Below are positions 1 to 19,925 of a DNA stretch of 20,000 nt, piece by piece. A program made the translations under genes and the position numbers. Where the stretch lies: positions 49,417 through 69,416 of the forward strand of contig JBFLGF010000090.1 of assembly GCA_050230475.1 (NCBI GenBank), given 5' to 3'. This DNA comes from Ancylonema sp. Its lineage: Eukaryota. The first letter of the stretch is position 1; every line of letters starts with the position of its first letter. The notes beneath the pieces were generated by a model. It was not told the DNA's origin and searched no databases. It was given only the letters and a program-made list of their open reading frames with translations.

Positions 1-4
1 ATTT

Positions 5-64
5 GCCCCTCATGGAGGTCTTCATGCCCCTCATGGAGGTCTCATGCCCCTCATGGAGGTCTTA
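5..64. repeat. Three tandem copies of a 20-21 bp unit, gcccctcatggaggtct(t)cat
   Basis: Read directly. Each unit contains the small inverted repeat cctc-atg-gagg. Confidence 0.9.
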
Positions 65-274: not shown

Positions 275-415
275 CTAGTGTCGAGGACAAGTCCAGTTTC
301 CCTCCGGCACTCCTACCAGGGGTGGTGTTAATAAACACCAAGTGTGATACCCCTGGTTACACTTGTCGCACAGCACCATCCGTTTCGGGTAGGACTGCAA
401 CCCACAAACCCGGCA
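275..415 (-). pseudogene. PHD zinc finger at the C-terminus of the Gypsy integrase
   Basis: Manual translation: CRVCGLQSYPKRMVLCDKCNQGYHTWCLLTPPLVGVPEGNWTCPRH*. This has PHD spacing, the YHxxCL-xPPL-xxVP-xGxW-xC signature and His as the last ligand. It is frameshifted relative to ORF 328..510. Confidence 0.88.
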
Positions 416-800
416 TGTGCTGTCTCCCCGCGATCATACAACTCTGGGTAGACCCTCTTGTCTCCCACCGGTATAGTGCAGTGAGCAATGTGCTTCACTT
501 GCTCTTGCATTGTCGTCCCATCTCTACCCCCAAGAACTGCTATCCCTCAGTCCCTGAGCTCCACATCCTCAAGATGTGTGGCCTTGTGATGACCTCCAGG
601 GAGCTAGCCGTTGGCCGCTTCAGCAGCACGAAGTCTCCAACCTTGAACTTCGCCTTTGGCCTATCCCACCCTCCTCCACGGACTAGCTTGTACCTCTCCA
701 CCTCCCTTTGCTGGGCAATCGCCAGGTTCCTGAATGCCAGTGGCAGAACTTCCTGAAAGATCTGGCCCCTCCTATCTAGGAACACTTTCATGGCCTCCAC
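416..800 (-). pseudogene. Integrase C-terminal (GPY/F or SH3-like) region, frameshifted
   Basis: A..NL..AQQR...Y and FKVGDFVLLKR..RPHILR, typical of Gypsy integrase tails. Confidence 0.7.
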
Positions 801-2314
801 CCCTTGAGTCTCATCAAAGACTCTCTCCTCCTCGTCCTAGATCCGAGCTTGAAAGATCGGAAAAGCATGAAGTATGGCGAGTAGCCTAGTGACTTCTGCT
901 TGGACAGCCTGTAGCCCATAGCTACGTAAGGCTGCAGTTCATCCCACTGCTCCCCACCTCCCTCAAGCAAGCACTTCCTGAGTGCTTTCTTCATTGTTTT
1001 CACCATCCTCTCCGCCAACCCGTCTGACTGCGGGTGATCCCTGGCTGCAGTCCTGTGAGTGATCTCATGGCGGGCCACGAGTGTCTCAAACTCTCCTCGA
1101 AACTCACCACCCTGATCCGCAATCACCTCCCCTGGTGCGCCATACCTAGACAAGATCTGGGACTTGAACTGGTATGCCACCTCTTCGGCCCTCTTGGAGG
1201 TTGTTGGGATGAGCTCCACCCACTTGGTGAAATGCTCTATGCACACCAGCACATATTTGTTCCCCCTCTCCGTCTCCTCCATTGGCCCCGCAAAGTCTAC
1301 CCCCCACCTGTACATAGGTCCTTTGATGGGAAGCGGCTGAAGGTTCTTCCCAGACTCTCTGAAAGCACCCTTGCCCCGAGCGCAACTCATACACTCTTTC
1401 ACCACTTTCGCCACCATCTCCACCATGCCTCTCCACCAATAGGTCTTTCCCAACAAGTCTGCTACCCTCATGACCCCAAAGTGCCCCATCTCCTCGTGCA
1501 CTTTCTTCACCAGCCCCCCCCGCTCCCGCGGTCTTGGGATCACTAGCATCCTCCCTTTCTCTCCCACCTTGTACAGGTTGGTTCCCAGCCACCTGTACTT
1601 GGTCCCCCTCCGGTACACCCGATCTCTCTCCAGAGCATCCCACTCCTCACTGTGCTTGCCAGCCTGCAGGTACTCAAGCAAGTACTTGTCAGCCCACACC
1701 TCCCCCGAGGCTGCGTCAGTGGTCTCATCCACTTTCTTATGTTCCCCCACTCCTAGTGCCAAAAGAGTCATGGCTAAAAGAGTCTCGGGTCGGAAAGTGA
1801 TATCACCCCGGTCCCAGTCAGGAACCTCAAGTCCTCCTATGGAATCCATGGGAAACCTGGAAAGGCAATGTGCGTTGCCGTTCTCTGCGCCTGCCCTGTG
1901 CTCCACCTTGAAGTCGAACTCTTGCAGCAACAAAGCCCACCTCGCCAGCTTCCCCGACAGCTTCTTTGTCGACAGGATCCACTTGATTGGCTCATGGTCG
2001 GTCACCAGTGTGAACTGGTTTCCGATCACGTACTGCCTGAAATGTGAAGTCGCCCACACCGCAGCCAAACACTCCCCCTCAAAACTAGAATAGTTATTCT
2101 CAACTGGGTTGCAACTCCTGCTGGCATAAGCCACAACATAGTCCAGCCCCCGCTCGTCCTTCTGCCCAAGGACTGCCCCCATCCCCTTCTGACTCTAGTC
2201 AGTAGCAAGGTAGAAGGGCTTGCTCCCATCTGGTCGCCTCAGCACCCCAGCCGAACACAGCGCCTCCTTCAGCTTTAGGAAGGCCTCCTTCTGTTCCCCC
2301 CCTCACTCCCAGAC
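788..2314 (-). pseudogene. Gypsy RNase H and integrase core
   Basis: RNase H: LATD*S..GMGAVLGQ, VVAYASR, YSSFEGECLAAVWA, LVTDHEP. Integrase: H-EEMGH...CMSC zinc finger; VDFAG, ADQGGEF, GLAERMV (D-D-E). Confidence 0.95.
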
Positions 2315-3200
2315 CTATCCTTTCCGCAACAGCTTGTTGAGCGGAAAGGCAATGGTGTTGAAGTGCGGTACAAACTTGCGATAGTAGCTGAATAACCCCG
2401 AAGCCCCCCTTAGCGATGACAAGTTTGTAGGTGCTGGTAGATCCTTGACTGCCTTCACCTTCTCCTCCTGCGGCTGCAACTCTGCTGCAGTGATCTTGTG
2501 CCCCAGGAAGTCGATGCTCTCCACAGCAAATAGACACGTCCCTGGGTGCACATTCAACCCCGCTGCTCTGAGTCGTCTGAAGACCTCCTGCAGATGCTCC
2601 AGATGCTCCTCCAGCGTGCTTCTCCACACGATGATGTCATCGATGTAACACCTCGCAAATGTCAGCCCCCCCAGAATGTGGTCCGTCTGACGCTGAAAGT
2701 AAGGTGGCGCGTTCTTCAGTCCGAACGGCACTACGCACCACTCCCACAGCATCCGCCTGGCTCCCCAGAATGTTGTCTTGGCACGGTCCCTCCTACAGTA
2801 GTGGCATCTGATGGTACCCCGACCTCAGATCCAGCTTGCTGAAGATCTTTGCCTCCTTCATGACATCGAAGATGTCCTCTATCAATGGCAGCGAGTACTT
2901 GTCGACGGCGTCAGTGCATTGATCGGCCTGTAGTCCCCGCACTTTCTGAAGTCAGTGTAGTTCCCCTCATCGTCCTTCTTCTTCACCACCACAGTAGCCG
3001 AAGCATACTTGGTCTGGACTGATTTCCTTGATGAACTTCAGCTTCTCCAGCTTCTCGCACTGCTTCTCCACAAACTCCCACTCCTTTTCCCCGAGTTTCT
3101 GCGGCGGCCTGTAAACCCTCCCCTCCGACACCCCCCCGATGCTCATTGGCTCTCCCTTGAACTGCTCCAGATCCTCCATGCTGTAAGCAAAGCGACAATT
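2315..3200 (-). pseudogene. Gypsy reverse transcriptase, several frameshifts
   Basis: PFGLKNAP, YIDDII, IDFLGH, GLFSYYRKFVPHF. N-terminal VYRPPQKL...EKQCEKL is in ORF 2967..3374. Confidence 0.95.
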
Positions 3201-4391
3201 GTTCTCCCTCAGCAGCTCCAACACCAGCAGCTGGTCCCTTTCCTTTACCCCCCCCCCACCCTTGATTTTCTTAAAATTCTCAAAAAAAACAGGTTTTCGG
3301 TTTAAGATCCCACCCTTAGTGCTCACTCCTACCCCTGAGTGCTGGCTACCGTTCCCCCCAAACTCCCCCTGCACATCATTTTTTTTTTTGTTTTTTTATG
3401 ATTTTCTGAAGTTTTCAGTGGGGCCCCAACCTCCCCACCCCCAACCTCCCCCAACCGCTTCCTCTCCCCCAGAGCAGCCATCTGCAGCTCTGTAGGCCTC
3501 AGTTCTGCTCCAAATCCAGAGTGCAATAGTGCTATGGATATCTCTTTCCCCCATCTATGGTTTTTTAAATCCATGACATCCCCCCCTAAAACCCCTGTCT
3601 GAAAATCCAAATCTTGGATTTCAGATCTGGCCAACTCCAATTTACACTCAGAGTAGTAAAAAGGGCTGGAAATCTTTGATATTGAGTTTCTGAGTACACG
3701 AAATGGCTTGTTGAAATTTCCTACTCTATCCTCACTACCAGCTCGAAAACCTGCTTCTGGTTCCAAAACCCTAGGGTTTAACAGCACTTTTTCTGAATTC
3801 TGGACAGAATTCTGGCCTTTTTGACTGCCTGAGATACCTAGCTCTCCTTGGCTGCTAACTTGTCCAAATTCTGATCTGATTAGTGATCCTGGCTCCTTAG
3901 ATACTTCACTACCAGATCTCAAAGTTACAGATTTTTCTGGATGGAGGTGCAAAAACGCCCCATCAGCATCTCCCTCAGCTATTTTTTTGTCGGGAAGGCC
4001 AGCTGGCAATGATAAATGTTGCCCTGAGCTTCTCCCTTCGAATATGGCTGCACCCAGCTTGTTTCCTGGTTCTTCTTAATGCCCTCTAGCTGATCCCAAA
4101 TTTTCAGCTTAGCATCGAAGTCTAGCAGCGCGCGCACCACTTTTTGTGCCTCTGCCATCTCCCCTCCCCCTATGAGCCCAGCATACATTCCGTATGCTGG
4201 AGGGCTGTCCTTTTCGATTTCACTCCTCTGGTTTTCACCATTGTGTTCCTGATCTCCCCAGCTCCATTCTCGTGAGCCATTGCCAGTTGCCCCCAACCGT
4301 GCCCCAACCGCACCCTCCCCGCAGTCCCCCTTGAACTGCGGCTGGCCCCCCCCAACCCCTGATCTTTTAGGGGTTGGGTGGCAGCGCCTCC

Positions 4392-5400
4392 CTAGCTGAT
4401 CATGCTGGCTTCCCACAGAGCCCCCAGCCACCTCATGGTGTTGCCCTCCATGCATTTCCCCAGCCTCTCCGCTCGCTGCTTCGCGGAAACCACCTCCGCC
4501 CGAGTGGTCCCCTCAGGGAACCCCAACAGCTGCTCTTTCTCACCCACATCTGGCTCCTCCCGCCTGTGGGTGTTGGTGTTGTACACCTGCCCCTCCCCTG
4601 GGCTCCCATCCTCCTGGGTTCTGAAGGCATAGCTCCCCTGAAAGCTGACGATTGTCGGCATCAGGATCCTCTCCTCTCCTCGGAAATTCCTCACGACCTG
4701 AGGTGGGAAGTCGGTGAAAGCAGGTGCCTTGGGGATGTGATACTCCCTCAAGATCTCCCTCAGTGGTGGGCTTGGCTGCAGATCCTGCGGAATGGCCTCT
4801 TGCAGCTCATCCCGGTCCATAGCGTTCGTCCAACAGTAGCGCAGCCGATGGCTGGCTGCCCCCAACCCCCCTGCGTCCAGAACCACCCCCAACCCAATAA
4901 AAGACTCTATCAGGCATCTTTGCCAACTCCCCGGGAGAGGTATTTTCCAGAAAGTAGACTGGCGATCTCTCCTGGTGGTGCTGCAGCCACCCAAGGATGC
5001 GCATCAAGTCGTAGAAATACTGAAACCGCTTGTCTGCGTACCCCTCCTGCTTGCCTCCCCTGCTGATACTCTGGCACTCCGAGCCAGCCCCCACTATGTC
5101 GACCTCCCCGTTTTGCGCAATGAGATTCACCAGCGCCATTTCTCCGATCAGCCCCACATCCTGTGGCAGCCTCTTCTCCCAGCCAATGAATGCCCCCCTG
5201 TTGATCTGGCCTGGGTACTCAAGGATCAGCTTCTCGATCACCCCCTCGTTGATCCGGTTGGAGATGAGGTCTCTCTCGGCGCACGACACCAGCCGCACCC
5301 TCAACCCTGCCGCCAAGGCTGTTCTAGTGGGCCCCAGACCGATGCCACTGAAAAGTTCGACAATATGCACTCCCTCTTCTGGTGCCTCCTCCCTCAGGCT
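4392..5400 (-). pseudogene. DNA (cytosine-5) methyltransferase domain, DNMT3-like, inside the Gypsy polyprotein; one frameshift near 4935
   Basis: Motif I ELFSGIG (~5341-5364), II AERD, III QDV, IV GSECQSIS (Cys at 5074-5076), VI FLENT (~4941-4953), VIII AASHRLRYCWTN (~4821-4856), IX EKEQLLGFPEGTT, X QRAERLGKCM. Motifs are in the unpermuted I-X order. Confidence 0.9.
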
Positions 5401-6385
5401 CACGACCCGTGTGTTGATCGGAGCTGCTCCCCTCACTGGTGGTCCCACCCACTTCCAGGATCTCTCGACTCTGACCTTTCCCAGCAACCTCTCCCTTGCC
5501 TTCAGCAGCCTCAAAGCTGCAGCCGCTCGCCGTGCTGCATCCGCCTGCTGCACTGCTACCACGCGAAGATCTGCCTCACTAGGCTCACCAGTCAGCTCCC
5601 CCAACCGCGGTTGGGACTAACTTTGCTGTGCGCTCTTCACAGCCACCCCCCCCACCATCACCCTAGGGTCAGGTTGCACCACACTCGTGTGCTTCCCCCA
5701 TCCCTGAATATGTCCCTCCTCCCCCTTTCCCAGCATCTGCTGCGGTTGGGGGCCCCAGCCGCGGTTGGCCCTCCTCCAGCTGCGGTTGGGTGGTTGCCCC
5801 CCCCTCCCTTGGGCTATCTCCCAACTCTATGACCGCCATGCCCTGAAATTTCTCCCAGGCTTCCCCATTACCCCCCCCATACCCCTCCTCAGCCACCCCG
5901 TACTTTTTCCACCCATCTCCTCCTCCAGCAAGAGGTTGGCCTCATCGAGCGCCACCCTTCGAGCTATTTCCACATCCATATCCCACCCCCGTGCCGCATG
6001 CTCCTTCATCTGCTCCAATAAAGTGAGCAGTGCCAGATTCTGCACCTCCCCTTCCCACTCTAACTCCACAACCCCCTCACTCTCACCCCCCCCATATCCC
6101 CCTCCTCAATCTCCTGCCACTCATATGAAGTGTCACCGTCCGCATCCTCGAATTGACCCTCCTCAGCCTCTAAGCTGTAGAGATCAGACTGCATATGAAC
6201 CTCTCTTGACCACTCCCTGTGGATCCTACCCAACGCCATGGCCTACATAGGCAGTGTTGAGCGCAGTGCCCTGCACTCCTCCTCTGTCATCCTCCCCTGA
6301 GCCGGTACAACCCCTCTGATCTTTCCCCCCCCCTCAGCCGCTGAGCGATGGTAGTCTACTCTCCATTTGAAAACCTCTACCCAAC

Positions 6386-6832
6386 CTATACCCCCCCAAT
6401 AGGCCCAATAACCTCCATCCCCAGTAACACGTCGTAACACTCAGTGTCCACTACGAAAGCTACCTCATTGTACGTGGTCTCGTACCGTGTTCCAGCAGCC
6501 AGGGTGAATCTCATCTTCTCCCTTGTCATGCGCTGACCCGTCGCCATCTTCCTTGTTGCCGAAACGAATGACACCCCCACTGTCAACTGCCCCTCTGTGA
6601 GCCCCATACGTCTAGCCATCCGAGGGCTAATCATTGGTTTAGTAGCCCCCGAATCCAGAATCACCATGCCCAATGGGGATATGCCATTCACCACCAACTC
6701 CGTGTTTTTCACTGGAAGTGTAGCCACACTCCAGGGTCCCTTCTGCCCTCCCCCTTCTACCCATCCCGCGTGTAGTGGATCCCCCTCCACTAATGACCTC
6801 AACCCCCCGTACTGATCCATATTTTTCTGCAA
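6386..6832 (-). pseudogene. Gypsy aspartic protease
   Basis: VILDSGAT active site (~6641-6661) and a downstream YDVLLG motif. Confidence 0.9.
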
Positions 6833-8061
6833 GACCTATGCTTGTAGCTTGTGGTTTCTTTCTAGGGTTTTAAACTTCTCTGTCAGCATGTTTGCTAGCA
6901 CCTCCCCTTGTGTTCCCAATCCCCTCCCCATGATCTGAATCATCTTTGCCTGGTCTATTACCGCCCCTGAGTCACCTAGCTTCTTGAGATCCCCTACCAC
7001 CTCCAACCTCCCCGTCATAATTGGCATCGTCTCTGCAAGTTTCCCTCCTGGCCTCCTGGAGCCGCTGCCTCTAGTTCCACCAGCCTCTCCCTCTCCTTGG
7101 CATTATAAACCACCTCCTGTACCCCCTCCTCCGCCACCTCTATTGAAACCGGTTCTCGGCCGTATCTGCCGTACTCAACTCGCCAGTCATAAGACCCGAA
7201 TTGTAGATCGGTTGCCTCTTGCAATGCTCTACCCGCTGCAGTGTCCATTCCTGGAGGGTATCCCATAGGAGGGTATCCCTCACAGTACTACCCTCCCCGA
7301 CAAACACCGCTAGAGCACCCGTCGCCATTGCTGACGGAGGCGTTGTCACCCCTGTGACGCTCATCCCTGGTCGGATCTGAACTGACGGCCCTCTATCTAC
7401 CCTCTCTGAAGGGTAGATAATGTCGCGTGGCTGAGTGTTGTGTGCGAAAATAACTATCCTCGGTCTCCCTCGTCCCCTCCTCTCTGCCGCCGTCGCTTCT
7501 GCTGCACGGACCCCAGTTGCGTGCACTGCCCTCTCTGCTGCCTCTTCCTGCTCCAGACGTTGCCCTACGTTCTCGATCACACGCCTCAAATCAGGTGCCC
7601 CCGGTGATCTCGGTCGTGTCCCCCCTTTAGCTGCCCCCGCACTCTGGGGTCCCAGCTTGCCTTCCAGGCTGCTACCCTCTCCCCTCTCCCTCCCCTCTAG
7701 CCTCTCGGAAGTCAGAACTCCCTCCTCCAGCCCGCCCTCCCCTAGCGCGTGGCGCCATCATCTTGAATGGTGGCCTGACGTGCACCACTGGCACGTCCAT
7801 GACAACCCACATCTTCCCCACGTAGAATCCCAGTTCCACTCCGTTTACATCACCCTCCTCAGCCACCCCCATTGCCAGCATCTGGCGTGGGTAACCAGGG
7901 CTGAAGAACTCTTCATCTCCTCGGCCCAGCCTCTCCTCAAACTCTGGAGTTCTCCTTCCTGGTGGCCCTGGTACCGCCATGGCCAACCCCTGACGTGGCC
8001 GCTTGGCATCAGGTGCCCCCCCGGGGTTGTAGTTCTTGGGGCGAAGCTCCGGGTGCTTTGC

Positions 8062-9386
8062 CTAACACTGCTCCTCGGTGTGGTTCTGTTTGTCACAAAA
8101 CCTGCAAGGTGCCCCCTCCGTCATGTGCACCCGTGGCATGGACATGGCCACCCCTCTCGCCGTCCCAAATCTGGCGGCGAAGGGTGCTTTCATACCCTTC
8201 CCGCGTCTTGCTGTTGCGGTCTTGAGTGCCTCCCTCAGCCTCCCCGCCGTCTCCTCCCTCGTCCCCGTGGGACAGTTGGCAGCGCGGTGCCCCAGTCTGT
8301 CACAAGTGAAACACTTGACAAGGCTTTTCCCCCCCATCCCTCCTCCTCCAGTCCCACCCCCTCCACTCCCAACCCCCCCTCCTCCTCCATTCCCATCCCC
8401 CCCCCCTCCTCCTCCCTCTCTCGGCTTCCCTTTCCCCTCCTCCCGTCCCCCTCCCTCCTTTTCCCCCTCTTTTTGACGCGGCAACAGGCCAAACATCCGC
8501 AACTCCGCATCCCGCGACATCTGCGCTCTCTCCTGGGAGGTGGCAATATCTCTGACATCTGCCATACTTATCTTGGGAAGTCCTCCTCCATCCCGGCGCT
8601 GCTCCTCAGCCCGAAGCTTTGGGCCGACCACCCCCCGCAACCCTCCCAGCAAACAATCCTCATAAAAGCACGCTGCCTGACGCGCGCTGACCATATGTGG
8701 AACGAGGTTAACAGTTATCCGGAACAAGTCCTCGTAGATGGAGTTTGAGGTAGCTCCTGCTGGTGGTCTGAAGTTCTGGAACTCCCCTAACCATTCTGAC
8801 CCCGCGGTTGCAAATCGCGTCCTCAATCGCTGGAAGAATCCCTTGAGATCAGAGCTTCCAGAGGTACTGCTGGAGGCCCCTGAAGCCCTGAGGTGAGTCG
8901 CATCAGGTGCCAACTCGCCTTCTGCCCATAGTATACGCGCCAGACCACTCTCACTATTTCCACCACTTGCGCTATTGCCAACGCTGGGTTATCACGGTCA
9001 TGCGGGTCAATGGACCAGCGGTAATAATCTAGAACCAATCTTGCCTGCCCCTCTACGTGGCCTGACATCCGCTTGAGGACCTCAAACTGACCATATTCCC
9101 CACTAAGGAATTTTTGGAGATTACGCTTCTCTGCCTCCCACATATATTTCATATTTTGGATAAATTGGCGCTGCGCCACCCCTCCTCCTCCTGAATACTT
9201 GGGCACAACCAAAGTACTCTCCATCTCTGCCTCCTCCTCTCAACCCGCGAAATACACCAACGAATAAGCCGCAAACATAGGTACCGGAGGTACAAAAGCC
9301 GGTGGTTGATATATGACAAGCTGAAAATTCTCCACTTCGGCCTCTCCCTCTGAGTTTGCCGAACCCTGAGAATCAACTGATCCTGC
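8062..9386 (-). pseudogene. Gypsy gag, main part, with two CCHC zinc knuckles
   Basis: CFTCDRLGHRAANC and CRFCDKQNHTEEQC (CX2CX4HX4C), preceded by a Gly-rich linker. Stop at 9240 and a frameshift near 8900. Confidence 0.85.
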
Positions 9387-9833
9387 TTTTAGCAATGTTA
9401 CGTGATAGGTGTGCACGATCGTGTTAATCTTTCCGTACAAGGAACTTCGTCTCTCAAAGATGATCAATGACAAGTATAGTGTTGGAAGAATTATTATTGA
9501 ATGGTCGGCATCGTGTAGGTATACCACGATGCCTCATCCAAAACAAGAATCTACAAAGCGTGCCGACGGTCGTATCGACGGACCGTCGGCCTATCAAAAC
9601 ACAACAACAGTCAGATCCTGACACCGGCACATGCCGGACAGTCTGACAAGACATAGTCTAGATTCGGAACCATCTAGACCGCACGTGCTACAAACCGGCA
9701 CAACGAAACGTCATATTCGGGTGCCCGGACATAAGTCCGGCCCCTCAATATAAGCACACCCTAGGAACCGGTGTTACACTAACAGTCTGGACTAGCACAC
9801 TTGCAAACATGGCTATCCGATATTATTCCTACA
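9387..9833 (-). repeat. Copia 3' LTR (447 bp)
   Basis: Direct repeat of 14997-15469. Begins TGTAGGAAT on the minus strand. Confidence 0.95.
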
Positions 9834-9842
9834 CACCCCCTC
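9834..9842 (-). promoter_or_regulatory. Copia polypurine tract
   Basis: GAGGGGGTG lies immediately before the 3' LTR on the minus strand. Confidence 0.85.
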
Positions 9843-10199
9843 GGATGCCATGCCAAGTTTGGCATTGAGTCAGCACCAAGGGACTACCCTATCTACAGCT
9901 AAGTCATGGCGAAACCATGACATACGTAATATGAATGGCAACACATATGCCAGAATTCATGAACAACTGACCACTCTAGATGCAAGCAGATCTGCAACTT
10001 TTCAGGTGTCCTTAAGTGTTTTCAGGGCAGAAAAAAGAGTGGGGTGACTTAGCTGGATAGGCGAGCGTAGAGAGCCCTCCACAGGTGCATTTTGCAAGAA
10101 GAATAACAGAACATACACCCCCTGCCAAACATAGCATGGCAGCCGAAAATCTCCTAGAACTTAATGTGCACCCCCATTTCAGTGAACCCTCCCAAAACC

Positions 10200-11673
10200 T
10201 ATAGACTTTCCGTGTCTGTCAAGTAAGACTTGTGGAAGAGCCTTAGTGAACTATCGGCTGGTTGATTGGCCCCTGCCAGAGATACACATACTTCAGCCTG
10301 CCAGTTTTGTGACACTCTCTCACCACCCAGTGGTACACCACAACAACATTGAAATGCTTGGCCTTCTGGCGCTGGACTGGGTTCTAGATCATTGAGAGTG
10401 CGGCTGTTGAGTCACTGTAAACTGTAATTTAATTAGGGAGTTTGAGCTCATGCAGGAGCGACTTCAGGTAACAGTATTCCTTAGACACACTACAGGCAGC
10501 AATATATTCAGCCTCTGCTGTACTCTGTGCGCGACTGTAGACTCTGTGTTTCTGTGACTTCCAGCTCAATGCAGTTCCCCCAACAGTAGTGACCCACCCT
10601 GTGACCGACTTCCCACAGTCATACTGCAGCTATTCCAACTAGCATCACACCAACTAGCATCACAACCTCTTCCGCGCCTCACGTAGCATATTCCGTGATC
10701 CACTCTTCCTTTTAAATATCTAAACAGTTGGTGTAAGGCTTTGATGTGAGCAGTCCCAGGATTCCCCATGTGTTTTGCCAGTACCCCCAGTGCATGCGCA
10801 ATATCCGGTCTAGTGTTTTTCATTGCATAAATGAGTGACCCAATTTTTCCCCGGAATTCAGTTATCTGTACAGGTGTAGGGGGAGTTAGAGGTTCATCTT
10901 CTTGGTGAAATGTCAGTCCAGGTGGTAAGGGTAGTTTTGTAGGGTTACAGTTTGCCATGCCAAAACGTTCCAAAACCTGCTTTATGAACCCTCCCTGATG
11001 CAACGTGAGCACCCCTTGTTGTCTGTCCCTTTTCACTTCCACCCCCAGGATATGGGTTAGGGCCCCAAGATCCTTCATTTTGAATTTCCGAGATAGTTCC
11101 TGTTTGAATGCTTTAATGACCATGGTGTTAGGACCAACTATCACCTGATCATCTACGTGTATCCCCACTATGATCCGTGACTGTCCTGTGCCCCTGGTGT
11201 ATATGCATGTGTCCATAATGCACTGTTTGAACCCTATAGTGAGCATGAAGGTTGTGAACATCTCACCCCAGACCTTGCTACTCTGTTTCAGTCCGTACAG
11301 TGCCCCCCTCATTCTCAAAACTTTTCTCTCTGCCCCTCCCTCTATCTCCATAAATGGTGAAATTTTCATATATACTTCTTCGGCCAGTCTTCCATGCAAG
11401 AAAGCAGTCACCACGTCCATCTGTTCAATTTCCCAACCCTCTTGATTCGCAATAGATAGTAGAATGAGATATAGAGGTACTATCTACTACAGGTGCGAAT
11501 ATTTCATTATAATCAACTCCTTCTTGTTGTAGAAAACCCTGAGCGACCAGTCTGACTTTATATACTTTCAAGGGTTCCCGTGGGTGTGTATTTTGTTTTG
11601 AATACATATTTGCACCCCACAGCCCTTTTACGTGGTGGAAGTTCACACCCTCGAAAGTGTTGAATTCCCCCAA
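10200..11673 (-). pseudogene. Copia reverse transcriptase and RNase H
   Basis: RT: KVRLVAQGFLQQEGVDYNEIFAPV, MDVVTAFLHG, LYGLKQSS, HVDD, TRPDIA. RNase H: WCDASW, SWKSQK, STAEAEYIAA, YSDSTAAL, KAKHF. Frameshifts and stops present. Confidence 0.95.
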
Positions 11674-12374
11674 GCTTTTCAGCTCCTCCTGGATAGCAAC
11701 TAACCACTGATACTAGTGTGGCCTCGTCATGGCCAGGTCAGCGTCAAAGGGTCGGAGGAGTCAGCAGACATGGACACCATGCAGAATCCAGGGTCAGAGG
11801 GGCCGTTGAAGCCTGTGAAGAAGCATGTTGCTTCCCAATCGTCGTCCTGAATGGCTGCTTCCAGCGCCTGGTCATCGAACTCCTCTCCATCATATCAAAA
11901 GACATCCCCAAAGTGGGCAAAGTTTGCCCTCCTCCTTCCCATTACTCTCTCAGCTATGCTCCCAGCATTCACCCCTTGCCCCCCCTCTTCATCCCCTCCT
12001 TGAACTTCCTCCTCCTCGCCTGCCACACCTACGTTGTTGACCCAGATTGGCTGTCAGACAGGCTCAATCACAGCGATGGGGACCTCAGCAGCTGGTGGTG
12101 GCGGAAACTGTAATGCTGGGATCTGGGCTCTTGGGTTGTTGTGGGCGGCTGCTGCTGCTAGCATTGCTGCTGACTGCTGCTGGTACTGCTGCTGGCGTTG
12201 CTGCTCTCACTGCTGCTTGCCCTGTCACCCCTCCAGCCTTAGGCTCATCATCTGTGTCGGGGACCGGCTGGAGAAAGTGTTCATCTGCTTTGGCCTCGAC
12301 CTGGGGAGCTCTCCCCCCCATGAGTCTCGGGTACCCCGGTACTTCCTCAAAGACACGGACGTCTGTCCGCACCA

Positions 12375-13286
12375 TCACACCGGCTCTGAGCGGGTCGAAG
12401 ATGTTGTAACCAGCTTGATCTGCTGCCAGCCCAATGAAACCCCAAAAGCAGTCCTGGCAGCATACTTGTCCCCTTGTTTATTTTTATCATGCCCAACTTT
12501 CAAATACTGCACTAGGCAGCCAAATGTGTGACTTCTGTTCAGTTTGATTTGGCGTCCCGTCCACTTTTCAATAGGTATCCCCCTTGTCAATGAACTAGTG
12601 GGGTAGCTGTTCCTTAGCCAATTTGCATGCATTAGTGCCACATCCCAGTATGATTTAGGCAGTTTAGACCACATCAGCAAACATCTCATCTTCTCCATCA
12701 GTGTTCGGTTCAGCCTTTCACACATACCGTTCTGCTGAGGACTATAGGGGGCAGTCAGTTCATGTTTGATGCCTTTATCCTCACAATAGCCTTTCCACTC
12801 CTTGCTGGTATATTTCCCTCCTCCATCTGTCCTGATCGACTTTAAACGGCAGTCCTGACTCAACCTCTAGTTTCTGTCAGTGATGCGCGTTTGACTGAGA
12901 GCATCGCTCTTGTGCTTGAGAATAGATACTGTTGACAGTCTAGAATTGACCTCTATCCCTGTCTGAGCATAATCAAACCCTCCGTGCATTGATCTGACAC
13001 ACACCAAAAGGATCAGATCTAGATGCAACCTCCCCATTTTTGGCATAGTGGTCACATCATCGCTAGCCATAGCATGCCCCCTCTGTCCCATTTTCCCCAT
13101 ACAGCAGATCACACAATCCTTGACCACAGTCAACTCTTCCTGACTCAGTCTCGGTATGTCCCCACGTCTGGCCATGTTTGACATGGCTGGTATACCAGGG
13201 TGACCCAGCTTGCCATGCGAGAGCACTATGGACAGATTTGCTTGCAGACCAGATGAACCAGGCATGATGATAGATGCATGCAGCAA
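12375..13286 (-). pseudogene. Copia integrase
   Basis: HGKLGH...CVIC zinc finger; LHLDL, IRTDGGGKY, PQQNGMCERLNRTL; FGCLV. Confidence 0.93.
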
Positions 13287-13339
13287 TGACAGACCATTCC
13301 TCTGCCTGCTGACATCAGCCCATTTCTGTCCATTTTTAG

Positions 13340-14782
13340 TCAGTGGACGTGCAGAGCAGTGAGAGGGACGACGAAGAAGGAGTCGTCGTTCTTCACTCGA
13401 ACGTGCACGAAGCCTGTCCCCTTGACCTTGTGGGGCGTGCCATCAGCCGTGTGGATGAATGAATGGTGCATCAAGACGTTGGTGTCGTACTCGACGAAGT
13501 GGTCTTTGTTTGTGAAGACGTGATCGGTCGAGCCTGAATCAAGCCACAGATGCGAGCAATCAGTTCCAACTGCCATAGCAATTCGTGCATCAAATGAGAA
13601 TGCTGCATAAGCCAGGGATTCGGATGCATCAAAAGGTGTGTCTGAACGTGCAGCAAGTCGAGCCTCAGCTTGGTCACGAAGATTAGAATCAGGTGCAGCC
13701 AATGCCAGGTCAGATCTACGCTTCATGCATTCTACCAATGTGTGTCCAAGCTTATCACAGTATCTGCATTTTGGTTTCGGACTGCCACTTCCCTGGCCAG
13801 CCGATCTTCCCCCTCCCCCTTGCCGTTGGTGTCCACACTGCGACAGCTTGTGGCCGATCTGGTTGCAGCCATGGCACCTCATTTGCGGACGTGTAGGGCA
13901 GTCCGATTTTAAGGTGGCCATACTGGTTGCAGCCGTAGCACTGAAGTTCTCGTCAGGTCGCGACTTCCGGGACCGCCACTCCCACCTGGTCGACACTTGG
14001 GCCAGCTCCGGAGCTGCCCAAGTAACCCCCTTTTCCCACGAAATTGGCCTGCTGCCCTCCCGGCAACGCCCCTCTCCTCTTCCGGTCGTTGCAGACCTCC
14101 CGTCGATCGCCAGCTGACAAAGTGCTGACGGCAACGGCCTGCGGGATCGTGAAGAGTGTTGGCGCACAAACTGCCCAAGACATCACACTCTCCCGCGCGC
14201 TGTAGCGAGTGTTGAGGGAATTTCAGAAAGTTGATCGTCTGCTTCGCAAGCTTGACTGGCTCTCCCAGATGCCCTAGACGATAGTGCAGCTCCTGAAGCC
14301 GCTTAACGTAGTCGCTCAGGTCCTCCGCCTCTCCCATGATAATCGCCGTGAGCTCAGCCTCAGCGTTGGCGATCTCAATGGCTCCCTGAATGTCGTAGAA
14401 GGCTTTCAGGGCGTCCCACATATCCGCTGCAGTCTCGCAATTTCGTACGTGCGTTAGCTCCCCCGTCTGGAGGTGTTTGACGATGTACGCCATTGCAGCG
14501 ATATTCTTCTTCGACCAGACCTCTCGAAGGAGAGTCTGTCGACCGATGAGCTGGGTGCGTGCCGTGACCGTTCGAGCGACGTCCGCAGCATCCAGTGCAT
14601 CGAGCTCGTCCTGCGTGAGTAGTGGAGACACGACAGGCCGCTTGCCTCGGGGATTTGCTCCAATCCATGACAATGTCATGCAACTCCTTGTCAGCCAGAC
14701 CGAACTTAATTTTAAAAGCCCAGCCCTTGTAGTCTGCTCCTGTGAAGACCGGAATGTATGACTTTTCCGTCATGTTAGGCAA
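13340..14782 (-). pseudogene. Copia gag (two CCHC knuckles) and protease
   Basis: IPVFTGADYKGWAFKI N-terminus; CETAADMWDALKAFY; CHGCNQIGHKLSQC; CRYCDKLGHTLVEC; WLDSGSTDH. Frameshifted across three ORFs. Confidence 0.92.
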
Positions 14783-14982
14783 CAGCTAGATTCTTTTGAT
14801 GATCGGCTCTCAGCTGCTTTCTTGAGCGTGTTTCGTGCAGCGCAGCTCACACCTCAGTCACTGGCAGCGCAATTCGAAGGATTACGTGCAGTACTTAATA
14901 ATCCCAACCTCAGAGTCTCTTTGCAGCGAATCGCGTGGAATGCCTGTAGGTTATTGACACAGCGTCTTTACCTAGACCGCCT

Positions 14983-14996
14983 GTGGGCCCATAACC
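14983..14996 (-). promoter_or_regulatory. Copia primer-binding site complementary to the anticodon half of tRNA-iMet
   Basis: GGTTATGGGCCCAC abuts the 5' LTR. This is the half-tRNA priming type of Drosophila copia, Ty5 and Volvox Osser. Confidence 0.9.
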
Positions 14997-15469
14997 TTCT
15001 AGCGATGTTACGTGATAGGTGTGCAAGATCGTGTGAATCTTTCCGTACAAGGAACTTCGTCTCTCAAAGATGATCATTGACAAGTATTGTGTTGGAAGGA
15101 AGGTTGGAAGAATTATTATTGAATGGTCGGCATCGTGTAGGTATACCACAATGCCTCGTCCAAAACAAGAATCTACAAAGCGTGCCGACGGTCGTATCTA
15201 CGGACCGTCGGCCTATCAAAACACAAAAACAGTCAGATCCTAACAACGGCACATGCCGGACAGTCTGACAAGACATAACGTCTAGACTCGGAACCATCTA
15301 GACCGCACGTGCTACAAACGGCACAATCGCAACGTCATATTCGGGTGCCCGGACATAAGTCCGGCCCCTCAATCCTCCTAGGAATCCTACCACCGGTTAC
15401 ACGGACAACAACACTAACTAGTCTGGACTAGCACACTAGCAAACATGGCTATCCGATATAATTCCTACA
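14997..15469 (-). repeat. Copia 5' LTR (473 bp)
   Basis: Direct repeat of 9387-9833 with scattered substitutions, a short duplication near 15100 and a divergent block at ~15374-15415. Confidence 0.95.
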
Positions 15470-15473
15470 CTTG

Positions 15474-15579
15474 CCCTGGAATCAGATATATTGCTCGATG
15501 ATTCACTACCACCACCGCCTCCTCCACTATCCACTCTCCGCACCAAACGTCTGTTCTCGTCGCGGGACGAGGCAGACAT
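15474..15579 (-). pseudogene. N-terminus of the Gypsy gag, separated from the rest by the Copia insertion
   Basis: ATG at 15579 gives MSASSRDENRRLVRRVDSGGGGGGSESSSNISDSR, which joins in frame across the TSD to AGSVDSQGSANSEG at 9386. Confidence 0.8.
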
Positions 15580-15688
15580 GGACTGCGTGACTCAGAATGA
15601 AACTAAAACTACCACCTTGGGTCGTTCAATTTTAACTACGCGCTGAAAATTTGACTCAAAATTTGGTTTTGATTTTTTTTCTAGCGTA

Positions 15689-15702
15689 GCATTACGCCAG
15701 AG
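15689..15702 (-). promoter_or_regulatory. Candidate Gypsy primer-binding site, self-priming type
   Basis: CTCTGGCGTAATGC follows ...AGAGTCA, the putative LTR end. 15689-15703 is the exact reverse complement of 15894-15908. Confidence 0.55.
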
Positions 15703-16696
15703 TGACTCTACTGGGCAAGATATCAAGCTCTGTCTTTAGACGCGTCGAACGCACTATCGTACGCAGAAAATGATCACCGATACGATATATGGCATTCGCA
15801 CAACGATATCAGCCTTTAACATCGCCATAGCCAAAGCTCAACGCAATCACAATACGACACGTCAACGCTCTTGCCAAAGCTTAGGTGGTATGTACTCTGG
15901 CGTAATGCAGCCAGAGTGCTCCAGCATCAGAATACATAGTCCGAAAGTCCAACAAGGCACTTCCGACTCACTTGTACTATCCGTACGCTAGAATGTAATC
16001 TACATCGTACGCATGCGTCCGATCGAACACATTCAGTCCAAGCATATTCCATCCTTAGCCGTAATCGAATACGATAACAATCGGCCAATCACATTCCTGC
16101 CAGCATGTCACTACATGGCCCCTCAACCCGGGAGTCGGGCACGTTTCGCTTGGACGTCTGTGGCCGTTGTGACGGTTGTGGCTTTTTGACGGCCGCTATG
16201 TCGAACACAAATAATACGGGCGCGGAAGTAAGTCCTGACTTCCATACTTCCGCCATACTTCGGCCGTACTTCCGTCTCCCCGCTACAGCAATCGAATATT
16301 GATCGCTCTATCGAACAGTTAATATTCCGACGGGCCCCTGCGGGCTCCCGCACGCTGCCGCTATATCGCGAGCAAATAAATAACCCAGCCCCCAGCCGCC
16401 TACCGCCCTACTGCAGACCGCATGCAGACCGCATGCTAGCGGCGTCAACCGTACCCGGGTCAATACCCGGCCGGGACTGTACGGCAGACACAGGCCGCAC
16501 GTGCGACTGGAATAAGTATGACACATAGCCAATTGCATGAATGCTTTCTAGTTTCTCCGCTGACATGTTTCTGAGCGAATGAAACTCCTCGGAGTGCACG
16601 TGCAAGTTAGGTTCAATAGTGGAAGTACGACCTCTTAAACGTGTATCCCATACGTCTAGGTCCGCATTCTGGTATGCGATTTCGTCGACCTAGTCA
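15703..16696 (-). repeat. Candidate Gypsy 5' LTR; partner LTR not in the window
   Basis: CpG-rich non-coding block upstream of gag, with TGACT...AGTCA termini possible at 16696/15703. An alternative outer end is at 16755. Confidence 0.4.
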
Positions 16697-16855
16697 CTGA
16701 AGTGTGACGTTTGTCAACAATGTGGGGAGATGAAAACCGCTTGGTATGAAAGTCATATGTGCTCAAGAGCATGCATGCACGCAATCAGGAACCGGTAAGA
16801 GATATCCAACTAATCCAACTTGGGAAGTTGGAAACAATAACAGCAAAAAGTGTAA

Positions 16856-16877
16856 TTTTTTTTTTTTTTTTTTTTTG
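16856..16877. repeat. Poly(T) tract, about 22 nt
   Basis: Read directly. Confidence 0.9.
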
Positions 16878-17850
16878 AAGTATTAAATATTAAAAATCCC
16901 AGCCACGTCCAGAATTAAAAGTTATGCCCGGTAAAAGTAACAACCTAAGTGCCGAGGCCTGTCTTGGTCCCAAGAACGCAGTCTATAATCAGCCGATGCC
17001 GATATCGGGTAACTATGAATACACATCATTCTTAAATGTTGGGACTTTTAAGGATATGGTGTAGTGTCGCCAAATACGTCAACGGGGTGAAGGTACGTAC
17101 CGTACTGGCCATACATAATGACCCGGGTTGTCAAAAACGAATTCATTTTAGCTAATGAACTACCATACTACCCACCCGCGCACCCAGTATAACATTTACC
17201 AAACTTCTGAATAATGTGTATTATCTGACAACCCACATTATGGAATGACAAATATTTGAGGGTCAATTATGTATACGGAATATGATTGATTTGGAATACT
17301 GTTTTACCCAAAGTCAATTCAGCAAACATGCTCTACTTCACAACTGGATATCCATCCTTTACAAAAACATTTTTTTCGAGGTAGGTACGCTAGAAAACGG
17401 TTCACATACCGGTTCACCTATCACTTCACTTCTCGGTTCACATATCATTCTGGCATGAGCCTGATTCCACAGATTGACATGTTCCAATCATTCCAAAACC
17501 CAAGTGCTTATCGATGCATTCAAGCTTCTGAGGGCAACACAAATCTCTCACACCATTCAATGGCAATGCCGGCATTCCGTAAAAGGCATCCTGAATAAGT
17601 GGTTCAACCTCATGTATCCATCGCTTACAGATGCAGATCTTGATCTTGACCCCTTCACCGAGCTTTGCAATCAATCACACAATTTTTCTGACTCCTCTCA
17701 GGGCTCGTTACCAGACTACGGCCGCTAATGGATTCTGGCACATATGTTGCAACCGACGGACGATATGAACATATAAGTTGAAGCAACAGGCATGATGGAA
17801 GCAGTACCCCCTGGCCTACTTCCCTGTGAATCTCGTCCGCGTCCCTCTCT

Positions 17851-18042
17851 CTAATAATCCTCCACCAATGTCAGCAGCCCCTTCACCTCCGCCTTGAGTT
17901 CCTCGTACTTCTGTTGAATCGGCGAAAGGCGCGTGTTGGTTTCGCTGGCCGGGAGTTTCTTTTCGTAGCACTCCACCATCACCTGGTGCTTCTGAAGAAT
18001 GGCGCCCACCTTATCCTTCTCCTTTGCCACCAGAGCTTGCAC
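17851..18042 (-). CDS. RPN1: Ribophorin I (OST subunit 1), terminal exon
   Basis: CAG acceptor; VQALVAKEKDK...LLTLVEDY*; resembles the plant RPN1 cytosolic tail. Confidence 0.88.
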   Translation of the reverse strand: MQALVAKEKDKVGAILQKHQVMVECYEKKLPASETNTRLSPIQQKYEELKAEVKGLLTLVEDY

Positions 18043-18156
18043 CTGGGAAAAACAACGGCAAAAGAAAGATGTTTTGTGTCCGACCGTCCGACTCCCTCCT
18101 TCCCTCCGTCGGTACCCCCTTTACCAACAAACCTGTGGACATCAGACGATCCTCAC

Positions 18157-18381
18157 CTTGGGAAGCATGGGAGGAGGGTTGGGGGCCGATTCTAGAGTTG
18201 CCAGAAGGGCCTTCATGTCGTTCCCAGACTCTCTCAGGGCCTCCTCTGCACTTCTGCGCGCGGATTTGGCAGCCTCAATGTCCCCCGTCCGGCTCAGTGC
18301 GACCGTGGCCCCGTCCAGCTTGTCTGCGATGGAGGAACGGATGGCCACAAACTTCTGGAGTCTCTGAGTGGCGTCCACGGC
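18157..18381 (-). CDS. RPN1: Ribophorin I exon
   Basis: AG/GT bounded, 75 codons; ALSRTGDIEAAKSARRS resembles the plant LSRTGD motif. Confidence 0.9.
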
Positions 18382-18726
18382 CTGGAAAAGAAATGCGGAC
18401 AGAGGAGTGGGATTCAGTCGGGCGGACAAACGCAACAGAATGACGGGATGAGTAACGACAAAGCATGGCATGAGGGTGAAGTAATGTATCAAACGAGAGA
18501 AGGAGATGGACATGAGCATCACGAGTGCACACTCAATGTTGAGCCCGACCTCTGTTGGGCTCAACATTGAGCCTGCCTCGACACCCTGCAGACTGCTTTG
18601 AGGTTGTTGCTGGGAGGGGCAGGATAGTAGTTGGAAATCTGTGTGTGTACCGTCTGAAACCGTTTCTGGTTGACCTACGATTGCCTTCCACCTCGTAAAA
18701 ATAGGAAGTAGCGTCGGAAGGGAGAA

Positions 18727-18773
18727 CACAAAACAAAAAAAAAAAAAAAAAACAAAAAAAAAAAAACAAAAAA
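18727..18773. repeat. Intronic A-rich low-complexity tract
   Basis: Poly(A) interrupted by single C residues. Confidence 0.85.
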
Positions 18774-18798
18774 GGGCAGATCACGACGAGATAGGCAC

Positions 18799-19050
18799 CT
18801 GCTCGTTCTGCATCTTTGTGTGATACGTTGCCGTGTTCTTGGAGATGGTCAAGTCCGTCCTCGAGTAGGCGATGAGCGCGAGGAAGAAGAGCAGGAAGGC
18901 GCCCACCAGAAGAAACGGCTCCACCAGTAGGGCCGCGGAGGTGAAGGAGTAGGAGACCTGGAAGAACTGGGTGGAGTGCTCGGGGATGACGTTGCGCTTC
19001 TTCAGGACCACCACTGGCCGTCCCACCGTGTCAAGGTTGGTGTATTTCAC
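18799..19050 (-). CDS. RPN1: Ribophorin I exon including the transmembrane helix
   Basis: AG/GT bounded, 84 codons; VKYTNLDTVGRPVVVLKKRNV...EPFLLVGAFLLFFLALIAYSRTDLTISK. Confidence 0.95.
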
Positions 19051-19357
19051 CTGAAAAAACGGAAGAGGGCAAGGGGATGGGGGCAGGGAGGGAGCGTATG
19101 GACTTATGCAGTAGGGGCACAGGGTATATGAGGTGAGGAAATTGAAGTTTATGCATGGGTGGAACATTGGATGGCCAGAAGATGGACCAATCGCGGACAG
19201 ACTTTGACATCACTTCATCCTCTGGAGGGGGCGACGGCAGAGTCAATGAGACTTGAGAGTTGTGCGATCTGGAACGAGATTTGCAGAGAATGGACATTGG
19301 TGGTAAACATTACGATGAGTTCTTGCCAGTCGAGCGGCGTTGAGGTGTCAGTCTTAC

Positions 19358-19426
19358 GTCTTGATACTGCTCTGTGTCAAAGGGGACGATGGCCTGCAAG
19401 TCCCTGGACCCCTCTGGCAACACCAC
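19358..19426 (-). CDS. RPN1: Ribophorin I exon
   Basis: CAG/GTAAG bounded, 23 codons; VVLPEGSRDLQAIVPFDTEQYQD, containing the conserved LPEG. Confidence 0.92.
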
Positions 19427-19745
19427 CTGCACAAAAACTTGAGAGGAGTCTTTAATGATCCGACCCATCTGCCCTCACCTTACACTCTTTACCACAAACT
19501 GCGCCACACTGCTTTTCTCAGATTCTTTCTTTGAACTACTCCAGTGCTATGTCTCATGAATGCTCCGCAGGATCTGTAAGCGACGCAGCCAGTCGACCTC
19601 CAATCTCTCCCGTGAAAGACTTGAAGTTGTCCAAGCATCCCATGACTGGCTGTGATGAAGACAACAGAGCAGTGCGATGTCTTTCAACCTAGATTGACCT
19701 CCGCCTACTAGCTTTCATCAGGTGCCAGGTGTCAGCGCAACGGAC

Positions 19746-19925
19746 CTTCACCACCAGCTCCTCGATGACGACATCCAGAATGGGTGTGCCATACGTGGCA
19801 TTCACCACCCTTCTTCCGTCCAGGCCGCGGAATACCAAGTCCTCGAGGGGGACGCTGTATCCGAGGGTGAATGTGATGGACCACCCCCCGAGCAGAGGGT
19901 AGCGGGGCTCAAACTCCAGGTCCGT
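19746..19925 (-). CDS. RPN1: Ribophorin I exon; upstream exons lie beyond the window
   Basis: AG/GT bounded, 60 codons; LEFEPRYPLLGGWSITFTLGYSVPLED is the ribophorin I signature. Confidence 0.95.

What the first reader, a model, noticed from the sequence alone, without database searches (positions are those of the whole stretch)
4392..5400. Ty3/Gypsy retrotransposon encodes its own DNMT3-like cytosine methyltransferase between protease and RT
Seen: C5-MTase motifs I-IV, VI and VIII-X in canonical order, on the same strand as pol, with no introns and one frameshift. Motifs VIII (AASHRLRYCWTN), IX (EQLLGFPEG) and X (QRAERLGKCM) resemble DNMT3 (AAHRARYFWGN, ERVFGFP, RQRLLGRSW) rather than the circularly permuted plant DRM. 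Known, from memory: DNMT-carrying retrotransposons were reported in Symbiodinium and in the charophyte Klebsormidium (de Mendoza et al. 2018), so the class is rare but has precedent; this lineage may or may not be new. Inference: the protease releases an MTase that could methylate the element's cDNA or new insertions.
Basis: partly seen in the sequence, partly recalled or inferred. Interest (0 to 1): 0.9.

Follow-up and report, generated by a model that had tools for sequence, protein, structure and literature searches.

The report
Jumping gene carrying its own methyltransferase
This is a broken copy of an abundant Gypsy-type jumping gene whose family keeps a DNMT3-shaped DNA cytosine methyltransferase domain and a PHD finger under selection and likely uses the enzyme to methylate its own new DNA copies; the kind is known from one alga, but here a shared stop codon separates the enzyme from the reverse transcriptase.

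Summary
Observation confirmed. Minus strand 5430-4395 encodes a C5 cytosine methyltransferase domain (motifs I, IV, VI, VIII, IX, X in canonical order, one frameshift) between protease and RT of a decayed Ty3/Gypsy copy. A relative 45-47% identical folds like DNMT3A/B (pLDDT 93.6; Z 27.1, rmsd 3.0, 277 aligned). It is no one-off capture: the family is deep in public runs, 14 of 17 variants segregating among copies are synonymous (34% expected), and 1,754 relatives exist, named ones in Closterium, Scenedesmus and Cymbomonas. So the enzyme likely ends the Gag-protease polyprotein rather than sitting in Pol. Activity is untested; the Klebsormidium counterpart gave no methylation in yeast. The kind is published (KnitGypsy-Dnmt3, PMC5890265), and this scan noted similar elements on other DNA. 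New variant of a known kind; interest 0.5.

The parts
6836..9224 (-). gag region, broken into several frames; ATG at 9224; CCHC zinc knuckle 8313-8272
   Evidence: PF00098 22.6 bits; tblastn of P0122/P0123 gag at 9203-8865, E 3e-13/3e-11; codon-phase model
6386..6835 (-). aspartic protease, D-S-G at 6658-6644
   Evidence: PF13650 33 bits, PF13975 31.8 bits
5431..6385 (-). protease-to-methyltransferase linker, coding but frameshifted in this copy
   Evidence: linker profile of 9 relatives hits its last 60 residues, E 1.2e-9; phase changes match small indels shown by other copies
4933..5430 (-). DNMT3-like methyltransferase, N-half: motifs I (5367-5338), IV (5100-5071, catalytic Cys), VI (4956-4939)
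   Evidence: PF00145 22.6 bits; 44% to P0002; 89% to sister copy P0103
4914..4932 (-). copy-specific break (short deletion with frameshift) between motifs VI and VIII
   Evidence: sister protein P0115 reads through in one frame; loose ends at 4913 and 4938
4395..4913 (-). DNMT3-like methyltransferase, C-half: motifs VIII (4859-4824), IX (4535-4509), X (4478-4449)
   Evidence: 49% over 170 aa to P0002; 14 of 17 segregating variants in 4395-4530 synonymous
4392..4394 (-). TAG stop directly after the domain, shared by other copies
   Evidence: no variant listed at 8% or more in X1-X3, and X3 record 17 spans it with both its differences elsewhere; 44 of 54 relatives end within 3 residues of the domain end
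4319..4385 (-). two predicted G+C-rich stem-loops starting 6 nt after the TAG; candidate recoding signal
   Evidence: -46.5 kcal/mol, z -3.5; lowest energy of 591 windows of the element, z rank 8
3243..4391 (-). spacer of about 1.1 kb, partly coding-like (248-codon open frame 4075-3329), no known domain
   Evidence: linker profile of fused relatives matches only its RT-proximal end
2195..3242 (-). reverse transcriptase, YIDD at 2647-2636, broken
   Evidence: PF00078 62 bits; 69% to P0129 over 157 columns
434..2194 (-). RNase H, integrase zinc finger, core and C-terminal region
   Evidence: PF17917 110 bits, PF17921 51.4, PF00665 42.4; tblastn of P0129/P0130
275..433 (-). PHD finger closing the integrase frame
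   Evidence: PF00628 43.6 bits; best solved matches DPF2, ATXR5, KDM5 PHD1, E 5e-12 to 3e-11; 49-51% to P0129/P0130

Best explanation
The segment is the DNMT3-like cytosine methyltransferase domain of a dead copy of a high-copy Ty3/Gypsy family (gag-protease-DNMT-stop-spacer-RT-RNase H-integrase-PHD) that keeps the domain under purifying selection; in working copies the domain is likely made at the end of the Gag-protease polyprotein, likely cut free by the protease inside the particle, and would methylate cytosines of the element's own new cDNA, while the PHD finger likely steers integration by reading histone H3 tails. Shown: anatomy, fold of a relative, conservation of catalytic Cys, E-N and R-x-R, selection, the shared stop, decay of this copy. 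Inferred: polyprotein continuity (from relatives P0122, P0123), cleavage, packaging, activity, target and benefit (camouflage of cDNA as methylated host DNA, or immediate self-silencing). Odds: identity about 0.95; active enzyme about 0.7; cDNA or new insertion as the target, given activity, about 0.7.
For: Fold: model of relative P0005, pLDDT 93.6, pTM 0.92; Foldseek top rows all DNMT3A/B/C, E 2e-18; VIA Z 27.1, rmsd 3.0, 277 aligned for DNMT3A, against 23.6 for the bacterial CpG enzyme 4dkj and 22.7 for HhaI. Catalytic Cys in 194 of 197 relatives covering the column; E-N in 79 of 83 and 120 of 128, R-x-R in 81 of 93 and 125 of 128. Selection: 14 of 17 segregating variants synonymous against 34% expected, p 5.6e-5; 2 of 17 in each other frame. 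Constancy: contigs cover protease, linker, DNMT and spacer continuously in X1-X3, DNMT no thinner than protease; intact relatives P0129 and P0130 have protease-DNMT-RT-RNase H-integrase-PHD in one frame, P0123 has zinc knuckle-protease-DNMT then ends. The window groups with P0129/P0130 in both the DNMT tree (19 rows, support 100) and the RT tree (3 rows, support 98). Precedent: two SymbioDIRS-Dnmt3 domains methylate CG de novo in yeast (PMC5890265).
Against: Motif IV has Glu in place of the canonical Pro in 143 of 197 relatives, Pro in 39; its effect is unknown. KnitGypsy-Dnmt3, the closest published case, gave no methylation in yeast, called inconclusive by the authors. CpG observed/expected is 0.51 in this element and 0.57 in the neighbouring DNMT-less Copia, so there is no element-specific footprint of self-methylation. 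The selection test rests on 136 bases and on contig variants, not on full copies. Gag-to-protease continuity was not shown for this family. No host DNMT3, DRM or Klebsormidium sequence was in the trees, and by sequence profile tobacco DRM (E 2e-11, two permuted pieces) scores as high as DNMT3C (E 2e-10).
Confidence: 0.55

Rival explanations
1. The domain is kept for a non-catalytic or altered role: it binds DNA, RNA or SAM, traps a cytosine, or acts as a decoy for host methylation machinery, and the W-E-C loop marks this change.
For: Pro-to-Glu change before the catalytic Cys in 143 of 197 relatives; no activity of KnitGypsy-Dnmt3 in yeast; no element-specific CpG loss. Earlier unchecked notes describe catalytically dead MTase folds in other Gypsy elements.
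Against: Cys, E-N, R-x-R and F-x-G are all kept; Glu and Pro interchange within one family (W-E-C 62, W-P-C 30 of 123 distant relatives), which fits a tolerated loop change better than a loss of function.
Confidence: 0.22
2. The enzyme is active but works on host chromatin (flanks of the insertion, other copies, or genome-wide) after nuclear entry rather than on cDNA inside the particle; the PHD finger would supply the histone reading that the ADD domain gives animal DNMT3.
For: PHD and DNMT travel together in 39 of 273 proteins scanned; the PHD resembles DPF2, ATXR5, KDM5 PHD1 and UHRF1 fingers, which bind unmodified H3 tails (my own knowledge).
Against: PHD and DNMT lie at opposite ends of pol and would be separated by the protease or, in this family, by a stop; PHD fingers also occur in Gypsy elements described without a DNMT (Gypsy-7a_cRei, PMC9940879 passages), so the PHD likely serves the integrase.
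Confidence: 0.2
3. A one-off captured host gene fragment, neutral in this copy.
For: This copy's own near-private changes look neutral: 4 of 12 synonymous; weak Pfam score.
Against: Sister copies, deep family coverage, synonymous excess among copies, intact relatives in the same position and congruent RT and DNMT groupings.
Confidence: 0.02

Closest known systems
KnitGypsy-Dnmt3 of Klebsormidium nitens (de Mendoza et al. 2018, PMC5890265; read parts 1-4 of 7 of the main text and passages of the peer-review file; Fig. 4c and Supplementary Fig. 13 could not be seen)
   Same: Intronless, non-permuted DNMT3-related domain in a Ty3/Gypsy coding region, under purifying selection, likely in the same green lineage.
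   Different: In K. nitens the DNMT is described as part of the Pol ORF with RT and RNase H; here a shared TAG and a 1.1 kb spacer separate it from RT. The text I read mentions no PHD finger, no W-E-C motif and not the position of the domain; these may stand in the figures I could not see. The family here is far more abundant than the at most 33 DNMT genes listed for Klebsormidium, as far as summed contig depth shows.
SymbioDIRS-Dnmt3 and SymbioLINE-Dnmt of Symbiodinium (same paper)
   Same: Retrotransposon-borne C5 methyltransferase; the DIRS version is DNMT3-type and methylates CG de novo.
   Different: DIRS (tyrosine recombinase) or LINE backbone; independent capture according to the paper.
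EpiLTRs of Cymbomonas and Euglena (bioRxiv 10.64898/2026.05.21.726589; passages and section 8 read)
   Same: LTR element combining a DNA methyltransferase with a histone reader.
   Different: EpiLTRs carry a DAM adenine methylase, a chromodomain and a DNMT4-sister enzyme; this element has a DNMT3-like domain and a PHD finger, and no DAM or chromodomain was found.
PHD-bearing green-algal Gypsy elements (REM1, Gypsy-7a_cRei; passages of PMC6673714 and PMC9940879)
   Same: PHD finger in the Gag-Pol polyprotein of a Gypsy element.
   Different: No methyltransferase is mentioned for them in the passages read.
Moloney murine leukaemia virus gag-pol read-through (passages of PMC5009743)
   Same: UAG followed closely by a stable RNA structure between two coding blocks.
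   Different: There the stop lies between gag and protease and read-through is proven; here it lies after the DNMT, and neither the frame register across the stop nor read-through is shown.

Membership tests
C5 cytosine methyltransferases | Motif I F-x-G-x-G SAM loop | tested here: met
   FSGIG at 5367-5338; F-x-G in 51 of 53 near and 92 of 111 distant relatives
C5 cytosine methyltransferases | Motif IV catalytic cysteine | tested here: met
   Cys in the window and in 194 of 197 relatives; aligns with HhaI and DNMT3 Cys
C5 cytosine methyltransferases | Proline before the catalytic cysteine (P-C) | tested here: not met
   Window S-E-C, sister copies W-E-C; Glu 143, Pro 39 of 197
C5 cytosine methyltransferases | Motif VI E-N and motif VIII R-x-R | tested here: met
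   YFLENT and HRLRY in the window; family counts
C5 cytosine methyltransferases | Two-domain C5-MTase fold | tested here: met
   On relative P0005, not on the broken copy: Z 27.1, rmsd 3.0, 277 aligned to 6f57
C5 cytosine methyltransferases | SAM-dependent methylation of cytosine | not testable with these tools
   Needs an assay
DNMT3 (versus DRM) | Canonical, non-permuted motif order | tested here: met
   Motifs I to X in order; DRM 4onj aligns in two permuted pieces
DNMT3 (versus DRM) | Closest structure is DNMT3A/B/C; motif X G-R rather than G-N | tested here: met
   Rows 1-34 are DNMT3; after the motif X Gly: Arg 100, Gln 25, Asn 18 of 174; window has Lys
DNMT3 (versus DRM) | Branches within DNMT3 in a tree with host DNMT3, DRM, CMT and bacterial enzymes | not tested
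   No such sequences were among the proteins fetched; the tree holds element-borne domains only
Ty3/Gypsy LTR retrotransposons | Order gag, protease, RT, RNase H, integrase; YxDD | tested here: met
Ty3/Gypsy LTR retrotransposons | Terminal repeats, PBS and target-site duplication | tested here: inconclusive
   No repeat pair for this element in the window; the window ends 274 bases past the PHD stop and a Copia element sits upstream of gag
KnitGypsy-Dnmt3 | Intronless DNMT3-like domain in a Gypsy element under purifying selection | tested here: met
KnitGypsy-Dnmt3 | DNMT in the same ORF as RT and RNase H | tested here: not met
   Shared TAG at 4394-4392; met in close relatives P0128-P0131
KnitGypsy-Dnmt3 | DIRS-like arrangement of terminal repeats | tested here: inconclusive
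   Element ends not visible in the window
KnitGypsy-Dnmt3 | Common origin with the K. nitens sequences | not tested
   None of the 30 relatives looked up was named Klebsormidium

The most novel reading that the evidence does not exclude
This clade of Gypsy elements has moved its gag-pol boundary: a conserved UAG with a downstream stem-loop sits right after the DNMT3-like domain, so the methyltransferase is made and packed at Gag-level amounts while RT, integrase and PHD come only by read-through. The W-E-C enzyme is active and methylates the cDNA inside the particle. The DNMT3-plus-PHD element is an ancient lineage of green plants (chlorophytes, a prasinophyte, Zygnematophyceae) in which the enzyme occupies two different positions, before RT or between RNase H and integrase, rather than a Klebsormidium oddity.
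Probability: 0.25. Interest if true: 0.75.

Novelty: new variant of a known kind. Interest (0 to 1): 0.5.

Why it matters
Why a retrotransposon carries the enzyme that hosts use to silence it is an open question, and the one Gypsy-borne DNMT3 tested gave no activity. This finding supplies many natural, uninterrupted domains to assay, a family-wide change next to the catalytic cysteine that may explain the earlier negative result or a new specificity, and an ORF layout predicting that the enzyme is abundant in particles. It widens the range from one alga to named relatives in Closterium, Scenedesmus and Cymbomonas. Searches and 106 of the held library found Gypsy-DNMT3 described only for K. nitens or, in passing, for streptophytes; subscription papers and the unread supplementary figures may hold more.

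Tried and rejected
No whole genome is held for this window, so copies could not be collected and no full dN/dS was computed. Two scans of metagenome contigs found no related locus (32 and 225 pattern matches, none confirmed); the broad alignment gave no pattern for viral contigs. No RNA holder listed. CpG depletion as a sign of self-methylation: rejected, the Copia neighbour is as depleted. A seeming likeness of the spacer to the post-protease linker, or to the DNMT-RT linker of fused relatives, was not borne out by profiles. Reading frame across the TAG: the codon-phase model is negative in all three frames at 4394-4275, so read-through is neither shown nor excluded. RNA structure control: with 30 and 22 shuffles the windows near the stop scored z -2.9 to -3.7; seven other windows of 591 scored lower, and the window was picked by eye. 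No Rfam match. The maximum-likelihood tree did not finish; FastTree was used, midpoint-drawn, without outgroup. The host could not be named; the Atlas did not take the ribophorin exon and was unreachable. The REM1 paper is not held. Summed contig depth is no copy number by the tool's own note; it is used only to say that the family is abundant. No complex was predicted.

Full report
Observation. On the minus strand the window holds, from high to low coordinates, a gag region with a CCHC knuckle, an aspartic protease, the segment in question, a spacer, RT, RNase H and integrase: the Ty3/Gypsy order. On its own the copy barely passes Pfam PF00145 (22.6 bits, cut-off 22) and the C-half matches nothing in Pfam or the PDB. 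Homologues settle it: P0002, a protease-DNMT protein without a break, is 44% and 49% identical to the two halves and collinear with them.

The break and the state of this copy. P0103 and P0115 are 89-100% identical to the window and are taken as sister copies. P0115 runs in one frame from motif IV to motif VIII, and both have W-E-C where the window has S-E-C. Contigs laid on 3900-7000 show loose ends at 4913 and 4938. The frameshift is thus a short deletion of this copy. Stops at 6838, 5829 and 4078 are replaced in over 90% of the depth in X1 (only 40 of about 620 variant places were shown). Near-private changes in the DNMT are synonymous in 4 of 12 cases, as expected of neutral decay. The copy is dead; some of its indels lie in homopolymer runs and may be assembly errors.

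What the domain is. An alignment of 105 sequences (103 relatives and the two window halves) was used to fold P0005, 45-47% identical to the halves: pLDDT 93.6, pTM 0.92. All rows Foldseek listed are DNMT3A/B/C (best E 2.4e-18); VIA-align gives Z 27.1, rmsd 3.0, 277 aligned for DNMT3A, rows 1-34 all DNMT3, then 4dkj at 23.6 and HhaI at 22.7. By sequence profile tobacco DRM and DNMT3C score alike, but DRM aligns in two permuted pieces; the order here is canonical. The catalytic Cys is kept in 194 of 197 relatives covering it; the residue before it is Glu in 143 and Pro in 39; after the motif X Gly stands Arg in 100 and Asn in 18 of 174, the DNMT3-like state seen in the alignments. So it looks and folds like DNMT3, with a non-canonical motif IV. 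No tree with host DNMT3 was possible.

Constancy and selection. Five runs of three studies hold part of the stretch. In X1, X2 and X3 contigs cover all 30 bins from protease to spacer; summed depth in X1 is 24,000-69,000 over the DNMT and 11,000-20,000 over the protease, while single listed contigs have depths near 100. The tool warns that this is no copy number; I take it only as showing an abundant family that carries the domain. In 4395-4530, 22 variants were listed at 8% or more in some run; 17 have under 75% of X1 depth and are counted as segregating among copies, 14 of them synonymous against 34% expected for transitions (p 5.6e-5), and only 2 of 17 in either other frame. The sample is small but the signal is clear.

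Relatives. The profile found 183 near-length and 13 long proteins and 1,754 cluster representatives, 235 at E 1e-30 or better, of which 150 were listed. Among 273 proteins examined, most are fragments (179 DNMT only); 25 read RT-RH-DNMT-INT-PHD, 15 PR-DNMT, and 10 have the DNMT before RT. P0129 and P0130 carry protease, DNMT, RT, RNase H, integrase and PHD in one frame; P0123 carries zinc knuckle, protease and DNMT and ends there. Of 30 relatives looked up, eight have species names: six Closterium (DNMT after protease or before RT), one Scenedesmus, one Cymbomonas (DNMT before integrase); none is Klebsormidium. In FastTree trees the window's DNMT falls in a 19-row clade (support 100) with P0129/P0130 and the stop-type proteins (135 near-full domains), and its RT with P0129/P0130 (support 98; 55 rows). 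The nearest relatives are unnamed; the host is probably a streptophyte, which is inference from the named relatives and the Atlas's top cluster (commonest Streptophyta).

After the integrase, 433-278 encodes a complete PHD finger (PF00628 43.6 bits), closest to DPF2, ATXR5, KDM5 PHD1 and UHRF1 fingers. From my own knowledge these bind unmodified H3 tails. PHD fingers are already known in green-algal Gypsy elements (passages of PMC6673714, and PMC9940879), so it most likely guides the integrase.

The frame ends at TAG 4394-4392. No variant is listed there; because the place lies 28-30 bases from the edge of the laid stretch, where listing may be filtered, the better evidence is X3 record 17, which spans 4365-4426 with two differences, both accounted for at 4399 and 4411, and carries 51.7 of 56.9 depth. 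Of 54 relatives that reach the domain end, 44 end within 3 residues, 35 at exactly the same column (a few may be contig ends); the rest run on towards RT. Six bases after the TAG begin two stem-loops (-46.5 kcal/mol, z -3.5), the lowest-energy windows of 591 in the element, but only rank 8 by z. The spacer holds a 248-codon open frame and scores as coding from about 4214. The geometry recalls UAG read-through in Moloney virus (passages of PMC5009743), but the frame across the stop is unresolved, so a separately started or spliced pol is as possible. Either way the DNMT would be made with Gag and protease, in larger amounts than RT (inference).

Mechanism. Most likely the protease frees the domain in the particle and it methylates the new cDNA, which then enters a methylated genome disguised or pre-silenced; this follows the proposal of de Mendoza et al. 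for DIRS elements. Against it: the Glu before the Cys, the negative or inconclusive yeast result for KnitGypsy-Dnmt3, and CpG depletion no stronger than in the DNMT-less Copia next door (0.51 versus 0.57). Rivals are a non-catalytic role and action on host chromatin.

Comparison and verdict. It works like KnitGypsy-Dnmt3 and meets its main description, but fails one stated feature (same ORF as RT), and kinship with the K. nitens sequences was not tested. Figure 4c and the supplementary figures of PMC5890265 could not be read and may already show the PHD, the position or the motif. Later papers mention Gypsy-DNMT3 only in passing (passages of PMC12344493; bioRxiv 10.64898/2026.05.21.726589). 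Two earlier unchecked notes of this scan describe DNMT3-bearing Gypsy elements, one with a PHD, in moss-like DNA of other genomes; I had found the PHD before reading them and did not test their host assignment. Verdict: real, well supported, a new variant of a published rare kind; interest 0.5.

Noticed in passing
window 9386-15470, minus strand: A whole decayed Ty1/Copia element (gag, integrase, RT by Pfam; LTRs 9386-9834 and 14996-15470, 88% alike over 478 columns) sits about 160 bases upstream of the Gypsy gag start, probably nested in its leader.
   Followed up: partly
window 17850-20000, minus strand: Exons of a host ribophorin I gene (PF04597, 60 and 56 bits), showing a eukaryote with spliced genes.
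   Followed up: partly
P0144, P0145, P0151, P0264, P0227 and others: A large group of relatives carries the same DNMT3-like domain between RNase H and integrase (RT-RH-DNMT-INT-PHD in 25 of 273 proteins); named members come from Scenedesmus sp. and Cymbomonas. They fall apart from the DNMT-before-RT elements in both trees.
   Followed up: partly
P0229: One relative has the DNMT before the protease, a third position, with a canonical F-P-C motif; long branch in both trees.
   Followed up: no
P0159: A G-patch domain follows the DNMT in one RH-DNMT-INT element.
   Followed up: no
window 4-63 and 136-241: A 20-base tandem repeat (2.9 copies) and a 49-base direct repeat just past the PHD stop; may belong to the element's 3' end.
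   Followed up: no
window 275-9239: CpG is halved (0.51) but CHG is not depleted (1.06) in the Gypsy element; the same holds for the Copia (0.57, 1.27).
   Followed up: no
window 4175-4265 and 7220-7475, minus strand: Further windows with strong predicted RNA structure (z -4.7 and -5.0, 22 shuffles); the second lies in the gag region.
   Followed up: no
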